Made by a program: the position numbers and the translations under genes
The notes under the pieces: model-generated
Databases searched by the model: none
What the model was told of the DNA's origin: nothing
The model's input: only the letters and a program-made list of their open reading frames with translations
Source: Eledone cirrhosa
Lineage: Eukaryota
DNA: 64,000 nt
Direction: 5' to 3'
NCBI GenBank assembly: GCA_964016885.1
Contig: OZ024742.1
Location: forward strand, 199,206,001-199,270,000
Part shown: positions 3,057 to 28,554 of the stretch, piece after piece
Layout of the letters: each line of letters opens with the position of its first letter
Position numbering within the stretch: position 1 is the first letter of the stretch

Positions 3057-3409
3057 GGAGGCACATGGCTTAGTGGTTAGAGCATTGGCCTTGCAATCGA
3101 AAGGTTGTGAGTTCAATTCTCAGACCGGGTGATGTGTTGTTTCCTTGAGCAAGACACTTTATTTCACATTGCTCCAGTTTTACTCAGCTGTAGAAATGAG
3201 ATGATAGGGACTGGGGTCCATATCATTCCACTGCAAAGTGGTTGTGGAGGTGCCACAGCAAAAAAGCACCCAGCACTCACTGTAAATGAGGTTGGTGTTA
3301 GGAAGGGCATCCAGCTGTAGAAATCAAGCCAGCATCAGTTCCCGTCCCACCCTTGCAAGCAGGGAAAAAGCGGACGTAAAATGAAATGATGATGATGATG
3401 AATGATGAT
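3057..3409 (+). mobile_element. tRNA-derived SINE with RTE-derived 3' tail (family S1)
   Basis: A box TGGCTTAGTGG, B box GTTCAATTC, central CCTTGAGCAAGACACTT. The 3' half matches the RTE-A 3' UTR (AAAAAGCACCCAGCACTCACTGTAAATGAGGTTGGTGTTAGGAAGGGCATCCAGCTGTAGAAATCAAGCCAG). (GAT)n tail. Confidence 0.9.
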
Positions 3410-4094
3410 ATATCGTGCATATATATATTATATATCGTGCATATATATATATATATATATATATCGTGCATATATATATATATATATATATATATATATC
3501 GTGCATATATATATCGTTCATATATATATATAATATATATATATATATATATATATATATATATCGTGCATATATATATCGTGCATATATATATATATAT
3601 ATATATATATATCGTGCATATATATATATATATATATCGTGCATATATATATATATATATATATATAATATATATATATATCGTGCATATATATATATAT
3701 ATATATATATATATATATATCGTGCATATATATATATATATATATATATATATATATATATATATATATATATCGTGCATATATATATATATATATATAT
3801 ATATATATATATATATATATCGTGCATATATATATATATATATCTATATATATATCGTGCATATATATATATATATATATATATATATATATCGTGCATA
3901 TATATATATATATATATATATATATATATATATATCGTGCATATATATATATATATATATATCGTGCATATATATATATATATATATATATCATGCATAT
4001 ATATATATATATCATGCATAATATATATATATATATATATATATATATATATGCACGATATATATATATATATATATATATATATATATTATAT

Positions 4095-5999
4095 AGCATG
4101 CAAGCTTCGTTCCTCTCTAGTCTGCGTATATCCTCTGCACACAATGCCCAGGTCTCACTGCTATGCAGCATTGCTGTTCGTATGCAGGCATCGTACAACC
4201 TGCCTTTCATTTTTAGGAGAACCCTTTAGCAGCTAATAGTGGTATAAGCTCTCTGAACTTTTTCCAACAGTTCTGACTCTAGCTACAGTACTTTCAGAGC
4301 TCCCTCCCCCACTGCTGATTTTATCGCCCAGGTAATGGAAGCTGTCCACTATTTCTATAGAACCCTCTGCGCAATTGAAAGAGCTAGTATTTTGTGGGCA
4401 CTTGCTGCTACTTATTGCACCAGAACACCGGCCACATGTAAAATCTATGTTCTTAGTTAGCTTACCTGTGATCCCACTACATATTTTATGCACCCATACT
4501 TTGCATTTAGGACATAAAATGGAGTTTCTACCTACGCCTTTCCTACACACTGAGCACGACCATTCCCAGAAGGGACCGCCGCCTTGTTTCTTTCTACAAA
4601 CTAGTACTTTGGTCTTAGCCAGGTAATTTTAAGTCCTTTTGACTCTAGGCCGTGCTTCCATGTTTGGAATTTCTTCTCTAGCTCGGCCATTGATTCCGCT
4701 ATGAGTGTCAGGTCGTCTGCGTATAGGAGTTCCCATGGCAAGCCTGTCTTGAACTCCTCTGTTATAGCCTGAAGGGCAATAATAAATAGTAGGGGGCTGA
4801 GAACAGAGCCCTGATGGACGCCAACTTTTACGCTAAACTCTTCACTATATTCGTTGTTAATTCTAACCTTGCTGACTGTTTCTTTATACATGGCTTGTAT
4901 AGCCCTCACAAGCCATTCGTCAACGCCTAGTTTCTAAGAGCCCACCAGATAATGGAGCGGGGGACTCTGTCGAAGGCTTTCTCCAAGTCGACAAAAGCTA
5001 AGTAGAGGGGTTTACCTTTAGCTAGGTACTTCTCCTGTAGTTGTCGTACTATGAAAAGAGCGTCTGTGGTACTTTGCCTGACACAAACCCGAACTGCATT
5101 TCATCTAGGTCAATTCTCTCTCTGATTAGTTGCGCTATTACTTTTCCGTGACTTCATGACCTGGTCGATTAATTTAATGCCTCTATAGTTACTCCTATCT
5201 AGGGCGTCTCCTTTACCCTTATAACAGTTAACGATGATGCTGCTATGCATGGGAACAACCCCATTCTGTACGACTTGGTTAACTATGCGGGTGACCATGG
5301 TGTGTCCCACCGTGCCAGATGCCTTCAGCACTCTCAGCAACTATTTCCGAAGGCCCAGCCGCCTTACCCGTCTTCATATCCTTGATTGCCTTACTTATTA
5401 TACTCCCTCGACTAACACTGCTGGTCCCTCTATTGGGTCGATATGGGGAGACCGTCTTTCTCCCATTTATTCTCCTCATTTAGTAGCCTTTCATAGTGAC
5501 ACTTCCAAGCTACCTTCTTATCAGCGTCGGTGATGGCAAGTGTGCCATCGTCGTTTAGTACACACTTCTCCCCGACAAATATCACGGTTTTCCTTGACGC
5601 ATTGCCTAGCAATCCTGAACACCTCACGTTTTTGGTCATCGCGTTGTAGAACATGCTTGAACTTTCTTTCCTCAGCTTCCCTTCTTGCTAAGTACACTTG
5701 TCTCCTAGCTTCCCTCCTGGCCACTTGATAGTCTTCTCTACTTCCCCCATCCCGCCATACTTTCCAGCCTGCTTTTTGGCCTTAATTGACCCCTCCACCT
5801 TACTGTTCCACCACCATGTTACTCTCCTCCTGCCTACAGGCCTGCTCCAGCCACAGACTTCGTCTGTCGCCACAGCAGGTTTGCTTTCAGAAATTCCACT
5901 CTCCCTCTATATGTCCGACTCTAAATGTTCTTCCTTACTGTCGAAAGCATAAAGTAATATGCTTTGAAATTTATTCCTGGCTGTGGGGTCCTTTAGCTT
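4095..5999 (-). mobile_element. RTE LINE subfamily B, internal RT fragment with frameshifts, no 3' end
   Basis: QGSVLSPLLF, LLYADD and the Cys-rich domain are spread over several frames. 4095-4422 is near-identical to 29225-29554. Confidence 0.92.
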
Positions 6000-7734
6000 A
6001 TATATATATCATGTATATATATATATATATATATCATGTATATATATATATATATATATATATCATGTATATATATATATATATATATATATATATATAG
6101 CATGTATATATATATATATATATATATATCATGTATATATATATATATATATATATATATATATATAGCATGTATATATATATATATATATATATATATA
6201 TATCATGTATATATATATATATATATATATATATATATATATATATATCATGTATATATATATATATATATATATATATATATATATATCATGTATATAT
6301 ATATATATATATATCATGTATATATATATATATATATATCATGTATATATATATATATATATATCATGTATAATATATATATATATATATATCATGTATA
6401 TATATATATATATATATATATATATCATGTATATATATATATATATATATATATCATGTATATATATATATATATATATATCATGATATATATATATATA
6501 TATATATCATGTGTATATATATATATATATATATCATGTATATATATATATATATATATCATGTATATATATATATATATATATATCATGTATATATATA
6601 TATCATGTATATATATATATATATATATCATGTATATATATATATATATATCATGTATATATATATATATATATCATGTATATATATATATATATATATA
6701 TCATGTATATATATATATATATATATATCATGTATATATATATATATATATATCATGTATATATATATATATATATCATGTATATATATATATATATATA
6801 TATCATGTATATATATATATATATATATATATCATGTATATATATATATATATCATGTATATATATATATATATATATATCATGTATATATATATATATA
6901 TATATCATGTATATATATATATATATATATATCATGTATATATATATATATATATATCATGTATATATATATATATATATATATCATGTATATATATATA
7001 TATATATATATATCATGTATATATATATATATATATATATATATATATCATGTATATATATATATATATATATATATATATATATCATGTATATATATAT
7101 ATATATATATATATATATATCATGTATATATATATATATATATATATATCATGCATATATATATATATATATATCATGTATATATATATATATATATATC
7201 ATGCATGTATATATATATATATCATGTATATATATATATATATATCATGCATATATATATATATATATATATCATGCATGTATATATATATATATATCAT
7301 GCATGTATATATATATATATATCATGCATATATATATATATATATATATCATGCATGTATATATATATATATATCATGCATATATATATATATATATATC
7401 ATGCATATATATATATATATATATCATGCATGTATATATATATATATATCATGCATATATATATATATATATATATCATGCATGTATATATATATATATA
7501 TCATGCATATATATATATATATATATATATCATGCATATATATATATATATATATATATCATGCATATATATATATATATATATATATCATGCATATATA
7601 TATATATATATATATCATGCATATATATATATATATATATATCATGCATATATATATGTATATATATATATATATCATGCATATATATATATATATATAT
7701 CATGCATATATATATATGGATGATATATATATAT

Positions 7735-27619: not shown

Positions 27620-27677
27620 ATATATATATATATATATATCATGCATATATATATATATATATATATCATGCATATAT

Positions 27678-28023
27678 ATCATTCATCATCATCATTTCAT
27701 TTTACGACCGCTTTTTCCCTGCTTGCAAGGGTGAGACAGGAACTGATTCTGGCTTGATTTCTACAGCTGGATGCCCTTCCTAACACCAACCTCGTTTACA
27801 GTGAGTGCTGGGTGCTTTTTTGCCGTGGCACCTGCACGACCACTTTGCAGTGGAATGATAGGGACCCCAGTCCCTATCATCTCATTTCTACAGCTGAGTA
27901 AACTGGAGCAATGTGAAATAAAGTGTCTTGCTCAAGGAAACAACACATCACCCGGTCTGAGAATTGAACTCACAACCTTTCGATTGCAAGGCCAATGCTC
28001 TAACCACTAAGCCATGTGCCTCC
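27678..28023 (-). mobile_element. SINE S1
   Basis: Reverse-complement full-length copy, with ATATCAT on both sides. Confidence 0.92.
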
Positions 28024-28554
28024 ATATCATGCATATATATATATAAGTACATATATATATATATATACATGTATATATATATATATATATATATATATAT
28101 ATATATATATATATATATATATATATATATATATATATATATATATATATATATATACATATATATATATATATATATATACATATATATATATATATAT
28201 ATATACATATATATATATATATATATATACATATATATATATATATATATATATATACATATATATATATATATATATATATACATATATATATATATAT
28301 ACATATATATATATATACATATATATATATATATATATACATATATATATATATATATATACATATATATATATATATATACATATATATATATATATAT
28401 ACATATATATATATATATATACATATATATATACATATATATATACATATATATATACATATATATATATATATACATATATATATATATATATATATAT
28501 ATATATATACATATATATATATATATATATATATATACATATATATATATACAT

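What the first reader, a model, noticed from the sequence alone, without database searches (positions are those of the whole stretch)
3400..28032. RTE/SINE 3' ends land at the satellite core, not randomly in the TA runs
Seen: all five plus-strand RTE/SINE tails end within two AT units of a core C: GAT|ATATCGTG (3409), GAT|ATATCATG (8548), GAT|ATCATG (14647), GAT|ATATCACA (17050), GAT|ATCATG (25651). Typical TA runs here are 10-40 nt. The minus-strand SINE at 27678-28023 is bracketed by ATATCAT. The adjacent core is the local variant (TCGTG at 3409), so it belongs to the target rather than the element. PLE and Tx1 ends fall inside TA runs instead. Inference: the RTE endonuclease or priming step recognises the TA/core boundary (ATATC sequence, or the base of a TA cruciform), helped by ATCAT/(GAU)n microhomology.
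Basis: partly seen in the sequence, partly recalled or inferred. Interest (0 to 1): 0.7.

Follow-up and report, generated by a model that had tools for sequence, protein, structure and literature searches.

The report
Retrotransposons favour TA steps, not cores
Five jumping-gene copies do end next to the same interruption of a TA repeat at this spot, but across the genome they land anywhere along TA repeats, so they likely follow an already known loose cutting preference rather than recognising this satellite's core.

Summary
Five independent plus-strand tails (two RTE-A, one RTE-B, two tRNA-head SINEs) end 2-4 nt before a core (local p about 0.001-0.009, post hoc).

The inference does not generalise:
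- The core is nearly private to this locus (140 of 173 genome matches).
- Genome-wide, tail-to-core distance fits a uniform model for AC, CATG and ATCAT cores (p 0.3-0.9).
- 54 of 100 TA-context tails run into 24 nt or more of pure TA.
- ATCAT is the wrong strand to pair with the (GAU)n tail.
A weak downstream-edge bias (about 1.2-fold, p 0.02-0.08) is not excluded.

A real preference shows elsewhere. In an 18-bp satellite on contig C1, 52 of 58 insertions of the same three families share one T|AT(A/G) phase, and 55 of 58 share one orientation. That site has TTT at -11 to -9, the published RTE 'Tn-TA' signature. The TTT part was not seen at dispersed sites. Duplications look short (about 2-6 nt) or absent.

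The scan earlier noted a loose TA preference and a 'target phase' on other DNA of this genome. Verdict: new member of a known kind.

The parts
3056..3409 (+). SINE S1 (tRNA-derived head, RTE-like 3' part, degenerate (GAT)n tail); 4 nt before a TCGTGC core
   Evidence: head type from the copy at 25313
4095..5998 (-). RTE-B internal fragment without a tail (reference 1773-3703)
7735..8548 (+). 5'-truncated RTE-A, (GAT)8 tail, 4 nt before a CATGC core
11440..14647 (+). 5'-truncated RTE-A with APE, RT and PHD-like coding sequence (frame break near 12210), (GAT)7 tail, 2 nt before the core
14904..14915 (-). (GAT)4 alone, sitting at a core with a 4-nt duplication; likely a tail-only insertion, slippage not excluded
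16365..17050 (+). 5'-truncated RTE-B, (GAT)10 tail, 4 nt before a CACAC variant core
25313..25651 (+). SINE S1, tRNA-like head at 25323-25380 (Rfam RF00005, 31.6 bits), 2 nt before the core
27680..28024 (-). SINE S1; tail ends 6 nt from the core
28555..29554 (-). 5'-truncated RTE-B, 2 nt from a G interruption of a TACA-type array
30194..30562 (-). 5'-truncated RTE-B, 4 nt from a G interruption
2957..4090 (.). (TA)n array with TCGTGC cores, split by S1
5999..7734 (.). (TA)n array with CATG/CATGC cores
11111..15014 (.). (TA)n-CATGC array split by RTE-A (11111-11440 and 14648-15014)
16301..17261 (.). (TA)n-CATGC array split by RTE-B
18142..19304 (.). (TA)n-CATGC array with cores in both orientations
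22735..25692 (.). longest (TA)n-CATGC array, with S1 near its right end
27620..30195 (.). TA arrays (CATGC, then TACA type) holding three minus-strand elements

Best explanation
Two related single-ORF LINE families and a SINE sharing their 3' end inserted independently into a locus-private interrupted TA array, likely because their endonuclease nicks TpA steps (T|AT), and their closeness to the core here is likely mostly chance rather than recognition of the core. Shown: independent copies, AT-led junctions, uniform spacing to cores genome-wide, and one-phase, one-strand insertion in an 18-bp satellite. Inferred steps: (1) the APE domain nicks the bottom strand opposite T|A; (2) the freed 3' end pairs by 1-3 nt (A, AT, ATG) with the (GAU)n RNA tail and primes reverse transcription; (3) a T-rich patch one helical turn upstream raises use of a site, as in the published Tn-TA model; (4) the second strand is cut a few nt away or repaired with small losses, giving 2-6 nt duplications or none. 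Every TpA of a TA run is a usable site, so TA arrays collect insertions. A small bias toward the downstream end of a run, or later slippage growth of the longer side, may add to the local pattern.
For: Core nearly private: 173 genome matches, 140 at this locus. Tail plus this core within 14 nt occurs at 3 window places and 2 non-array places, against 13,557 RTE-A and 12,492 RTE-B exact 3' ends. Pure TA is used: 54 of the first 100 rows of 17,312 matches have 24 nt or more of pure AT after the tail (hand count). Distances fit uniform for AC cores (50 clean of 100 rows, chi2 p 0.90), ATCAT in tail-to-tail pairs (35 loci, p 0.92) and CATG cores (43 clean of 100 rows, p 0.30-0.77). A sister GC/CATGC-core array on C1 gives 5, 14, 3, 11, 12 and 2 nt. 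Own-run test: 17 of 69 within 4 nt against 13.3; 44 of 69 have more than 4 nt of TA on both sides. 18-bp satellite: 52 of 58 in one phase, 55 to 3 in orientation. The two bases after the nick alone predict 20 of 56 reverse insertions; 3 were seen (p 6e-8). TTT lies at -11 to -9 of the used site, as in PMC13295347. T at -1 and A at +1 each in 17 of 28 dispersed sites with a duplication.
Against: The local excess is real at p 0.001-0.009. Arrays elsewhere show a slight shift toward interruptions: mean rank 0.407 (n 36, p 0.036), and 0.357 for the 30 young copies (p 0.003; 0.404, p 0.028 if partial tails are skipped, which includes one copy just upstream of the window). Pooled: 32 of 63 within 5 nt against 26.9; mean rank 0.42-0.45, p 0.02-0.08. 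The T stretch was not seen at dispersed sites (TTT 24, AAA 24 in 88 flanks). In the satellite it rests on one sequence context, and the variant test had no power (30 of 32 intact against 91%). The window's arrays have no TTT at all. No biochemistry.
Confidence: 0.7

Rival explanations
1. The endonuclease or priming step has a modest extra preference for the last TA units before a G/C-rich interruption, for example because a primer ending in a long (AT)n folds back or slips. This window is a strong draw from that bias.
For: 7 of 8 array tails in the window within 4 nt; a further S1 just upstream ends exactly at the core with ATG overlap (L105); pooled mean rank 0.42-0.45; downstream side shorter in 41 against 27 (p 0.11).
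Against: Uniform distances for AC, ATCAT and CATG cores; sister array scattered; the duplication itself inflates the upstream side.
Confidence: 0.17
2. Insertions hit short ancestral runs at random. Afterwards only the longer remnant grew by slippage, so the short remnant beside the tail looks like targeting.
For: The first run after the junction core is 10 nt in three of five cases against a median of 23. Three window insertions (17050, 27683, 28555) have short TA on both sides.
Against: Three others have 31-61 nt upstream, which needs large one-sided growth. Empty alleles were not examined.
Confidence: 0.08
3. One reading: the enzyme recognises the TA/core boundary or cruciform base, helped by ATCAT/(GAU)n pairing.
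For: Five of five local cases; T|ATATC is a preferred site in the 18-bp satellite.
Against: ATCAT cannot pair with the tail for plus-strand inserts; identical ATCAT cores are not favoured genome-wide (13 of 35 against 39.8%); pure TA is used freely; the 18-bp satellite has no TA run, yet shows the strongest phase.
Confidence: 0.04
4. The five cases are copies of one insertion plus flank.
For: The locus holds large inverted duplications.
Against: Three families, different 5' ends, tails and cores; nearest relatives lie elsewhere.
Confidence: 0.01

Closest known systems
RTE-clade LINEs and SINEs with the Tn-TA insertion signature (Bov-B, Sauria SINE, plant RTE, Au-like SINE; PMC6007223, PMC13295347)
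   Same: Nick at T|A; LINE and SINE share the 3' end and the site; microsatellite-like tail with 1-2 nt overlap; TTT about 10 nt upstream at the favoured satellite site.
   Different: Tail is (GAT)n; targets are dominated by (TA)n; duplications appear to be about 2-6 nt or absent, against 7-15 bp reported for RTE; the T stretch was not detected at dispersed sites here.
3' microhomology of CR1, L2 and RTE LINEs (Ichiyanagi and Okada 2008; seen only as cited in PMC6007223)
   Same: One to several bases shared between tail and target (A, AT, ATG, occasionally longer).
   Different: Microhomology does not choose the site: the best-matching sites in the 18-bp satellite were unused.
Octopus RTE elements such as RTE-2_OV (PMC9115989, passages)
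   Same: Single ORF of about 1100 aa with endonuclease, RT and a zinc-binding motif, in a genome of similar kind.
   Different: Sequence identity not tested; that element's 3' UTR is described as mostly microsatellite, and the passages I read describe no target preference.
Site-specific APE retrotransposons of the Tx1 and R1 clades, including microsatellite-targeting ones (clades named in PMC6007223; details recalled)
   Same: Accumulate in repeats, in fixed phase and orientation within one satellite.
   Different: These families also fill unique sequence and many unrelated arrays: a preference, not strict specificity.

Membership tests
RTE-clade LINE | Single ORF with N-terminal APE endonuclease and RT | tested here: met
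   1039-aa ORF (L126) and 1092-aa ORF (L221), 74% identical; Pfam Exo_endo_phos_2, RVT_1 and PHD on the window copy; L1 endonuclease structures hit at E about 1e-4
RTE-clade LINE | Short tandem-repeat 3' tail and frequent 5' truncation | tested here: met
   (GAT)n tails and varied 5' ends
RTE-clade LINE | RT phylogeny groups with named RTE elements | not tested
   No named references fetched; Atlas clusters are unnamed. The label rests on architecture and recalled knowledge.
RTE-dependent SINE | tRNA-derived head plus 3' sequence shared with the LINE | tested here: met
   Rfam tRNA 31.6 bits; S1 170-286 about 90% and 290-339 about 80% identical to RTE-A
Tn-TA insertion signature | Nick at T|A | tested here: met
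   52 of 58 at T|AT(A/G) in the 18-bp satellite; T at -1 and A at +1 each in 17 of 28 dispersed sites
Tn-TA insertion signature | T stretch about 10 nt upstream | tested here: inconclusive
   Present at -11 to -9 in the satellite and fits the strand bias; not enriched at dispersed sites, TTT 24 against AAA 24 of 88; absent from the window's arrays
Tn-TA insertion signature | Target duplication of typical RTE length (7-15 bp) | tested here: not met
   Satellite: 5' ends at 3-6 nt in 22 of 49; only 1 of 17 candidates of 9-17 nt is a perfect copy. Dispersed: excess only at 5-7 nt, 21 against 10 expected of 106, with many 5' ends misplaced
Site-specific (core-targeting) retrotransposon | Most copies at one target motif | tested here: not met
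   2 of 13,557 RTE-A ends lie beside this exact core; distances uniform

The most novel reading that the evidence does not exclude
These LINEs read a split signal (a T patch one turn upstream plus T|ATR) and cut both strands only about 4 nt apart. A 2.4-Mb satellite with one such site per 18-bp unit therefore acts as a phased, one-way landing strip for three families. A weaker form of the same readout pushes tails toward the downstream end of TA runs, as in this window.
Probability: 0.3. Interest if true: 0.5.

Novelty: new member of a known kind. Interest (0 to 1): 0.28.

Why it matters
As stated, the finding is a local coincidence on top of an ordinary TA preference. The useful part is the 18-bp satellite. 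Dozens of independent insertions into one known sequence separate nick preference from microhomology, which the Tn-TA papers leave open, and give a ready substrate for a first nicking assay. The apparently short duplications would be unusual for RTE elements if confirmed. TA preference also explains why TA arrays in this genome collect nested elements.

Tried and rejected
DNA searches with RTE-A and RTE-B 3' ends returned nothing because very common words are skipped; exact patterns were used instead. The first duplication search needed 6 nt or more and had loose 5' ends, so it was used only for leads. A first own-run test gave 18 against 3 for a shorter downstream side when selected on the upstream run only, and 18 against 29 when either side counted, with unreliable boundaries; one search replaces it. 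Splitting interruptions into G/C-rich and A/T-only types looked promising by eye, but the CATG test did not bear it out. Duplication of one insertion was rejected. Microhomology as site chooser was rejected. No Pfam support for the putative Penelope ORF. Literature searches listed no paper on target preference of cephalopod RTEs or on RTE phasing in a satellite; the library lacks most subscription papers. No supplements were read, and those of PMC6007223 and PMC13295347 may hold invertebrate cases.

Full report
What is there. The window lies at C3:199,206,001-199,270,000 of a 3.0-Gb genome; an octopus is likely from the scan's earlier notes and my recall, but no call established it. From 2957 to about 37700 it is a (TA)n array interrupted by short cores (CATGC, CGTGC, CATG, later TACA), cut into pieces by insertions. 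Two LINE families (RTE-A, RTE-B) have single ORFs of 1039 and 1092 aa, 74% identical, with APE, RT and a PHD-like motif. The SINE S1 has a tRNA-like head and shares 3' sequence with them. The RTE label rests on architecture; no tree was built.

The observation. The five plus-strand tails end 4, 4, 2, 4 and 2 nt before a core, with runs of median 23 nt. The chance of this under the local arrays is 0.0015, or 0.0085 if a site needs 10 nt of TA upstream. Counting the three minus-strand array tails gives 7 of 8 within 4 nt against 2.5 expected. The copies are independent, since their nearest relatives among about 70-100 fetched copies lie at other loci. The pattern was picked after seeing it, in a scan with 1520 notes on this genome.

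The core is not a genome-wide target. The core with its TA flanks has 173 matches, 140 at this locus. A tail within 14 nt of it occurs at three window places and two non-array places, while RTE-A and RTE-B have 13,557 and 12,492 exact 3' ends. Of the first 100 of 17,312 tails with a TA run starting 10-11 nt downstream, 54 run straight into 24 nt or more of pure AT (hand count).

Distance tests. Each search lists only its first 100 rows, from C1 and C2, and I tallied clean rows by hand. AC cores: 50 clean rows gave 14, 11, 7, 4, 5, 5, 4 for 0-6 units, against 12.6, 9.8, 8.0, 6.9, 5.5, 4.2, 3.0 expected from 983 background cores (p 0.90). ATCAT cores, supplied by tail-to-tail pairs: 27 clean of 50 loci plus 8 zero-spacer loci in the same span; 13 of 35 at 0-1 units against 39.8% (chi2 p 0.92). 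Short inverted repeats may be lost, which could hide an excess. CATG cores: 43 clean rows, p 0.30-0.77 by weighting. These patterns exclude tails followed by G. A sister array with GC and CATGC cores at C1:33.99 Mb gave 5, 14, 3, 11, 12 and 2 nt. Among 159 young copies with a mapped 5' end, 69 sit in TA runs; 17 have 4 nt or less downstream against 13.3 expected, and 44 have more than 4 nt on both sides.

Against this. Ranked against their own arrays, tails elsewhere lean slightly toward interruptions: mean rank 0.407 (n 36, p 0.036), 0.357 for the 30 young copies (p 0.003), and 0.449 and 0.404 when partial tails are skipped. A second set gave 0.446 (n 27); its regions were partly chosen from rows, so it is not fully unselected. 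Pooled, 32 of 63 lie within 5 nt against 26.9 (p 0.02-0.08 on ranks). A bias of about 1.2-fold remains possible; the window shows about 2.8-fold.

Microhomology. For a plus-strand element the primer is the bottom strand, so the top strand after the junction must match the tail. ATATC matches only AT; ATCAT is the tail's reverse complement. Overlap at the core does occur on the minus strand: an S1 just upstream ends GAT|GCATG (L105), and a bare (GAT)4 sits in a core at 14904-14915.

The real preference. Unselected RTE ends at C1:7.2-9.6 Mb lie in an 18-bp satellite. Of 68 tails in 47 stretches, 2 were outside the satellite and 8 were repeats; 58 remained, two pairs of which share a 5' junction. 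52 of 58 (18 RTE-A, 33 RTE-B, 1 S1) end at one phase, T|AT(A/G)TC. 55 lie in one orientation, including two on the opposite chromosome strand where the satellite after the tail is reversed. Equally abundant sites with better tail matches were never used. Base use after the nick at dispersed sites predicts 20 of 56 reverse insertions; 3 were seen. So another strand-specific cue exists. The used site has TTT at -11 to -9, which is the Tn-TA signature of Bov-B and plant RTEs (PMC13295347, part 1 of 7 and passages; PMC6007223, parts 1, 3 and 4 of 6). That cue is inferred from one context: dispersed flanks show no TTT excess (24 against 24 of 88) and the variant test is uninformative. 5' ends in the satellite cluster 3-6 nt into the unit (22 of 49); 16 of 24 candidates of 3-8 nt are perfect copies against 10.2 by chance, and longer candidates almost never are. 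Duplications therefore look short or replaced by small deletions.

Mechanism and comparison. The likely course is target-primed reverse transcription from a nick at a TpA step, 1-3 nt of pairing with the (GAU)n tail, and a sloppy second-strand step; these steps follow established LINE biology and were not tested. TA arrays offer a site every 2 nt and so act as sinks. This works like the published RTE Tn-TA system, meets its T|A feature, leaves the T stretch open and differs in duplication length. Passages of PMC9115989, PMC13282606 and PMC5786205 show RTEs and RTE-linked SINEs are known in cephalopods; those passages give no target analysis. Searches listed none. The scan had noted loose TA preference and a 'target phase' in this genome before.

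Verdict. Observation confirmed; boundary or cruciform recognition not supported; ordinary loose specificity most likely (0.7). Interest 0.28.

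Noticed in passing
G000:C1:7.2-9.6 Mb (loci L146-L162, L194-L223): 18-bp satellite in which 52 of 58 RTE-A, RTE-B and S1 insertions share one phase and 55 share one orientation; a natural assay of nick preference.
   Followed up: yes
window 4095-5998 (-) and 16365-17050 (+): Two RTE-B pieces are nearly continuous on the reference (ending 3703, starting 3720) but face opposite ways 10 kb apart; the left end sits on GCATGC shared with the core, next to a flipped core at 4051. 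Possibly one element split by an inversion, though identities to the reference differ (96.7 against 99.9%).
   Followed up: partly
window 14904-14915: Bare (GAT)4 on the minus strand inside a core with a 4-nt duplication: a possible tail-only insertion.
   Followed up: partly
window about 19305-22735: Large near-perfect inverted repeat centred near 21070, with a 230-bp tandem duplication in each arm, bounded by TA arrays; Penelope-like by recall, not confirmed.
   Followed up: no
window 8650-11105, 15014-16300, 17262-18141, 30934-31646: AT-rich elements with inverted or direct terminal repeats between TA arrays; ORF 8889-9551 has a recalled GIY-YIG-like look but no Pfam hit.
   Followed up: partly
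   Followed up: no
genome-wide: Tail-to-tail pairs of (GAT)n repeats: 218 with no spacer and 1909 with 2-16 nt, mostly AT; TA after one tail often receives an opposite-facing element.
   Followed up: partly
window 45218-45264 and 44430-44570: Short hairpins: two facing (GAT)n tails in a local inverted repeat, and an inverted repeat just after an old tail.
   Followed up: no
window 60818-61566 (-): Overlapping ORF pieces that resemble a mariner/Tc1 transposase by recall; no Pfam hit for the 186-aa piece.
   Followed up: no
L106 (G000:C2:2,664,001-2,674,000): Second, small cluster of nine copies of the same core, with no RTE tail detected in the stretch.
   Followed up: partly
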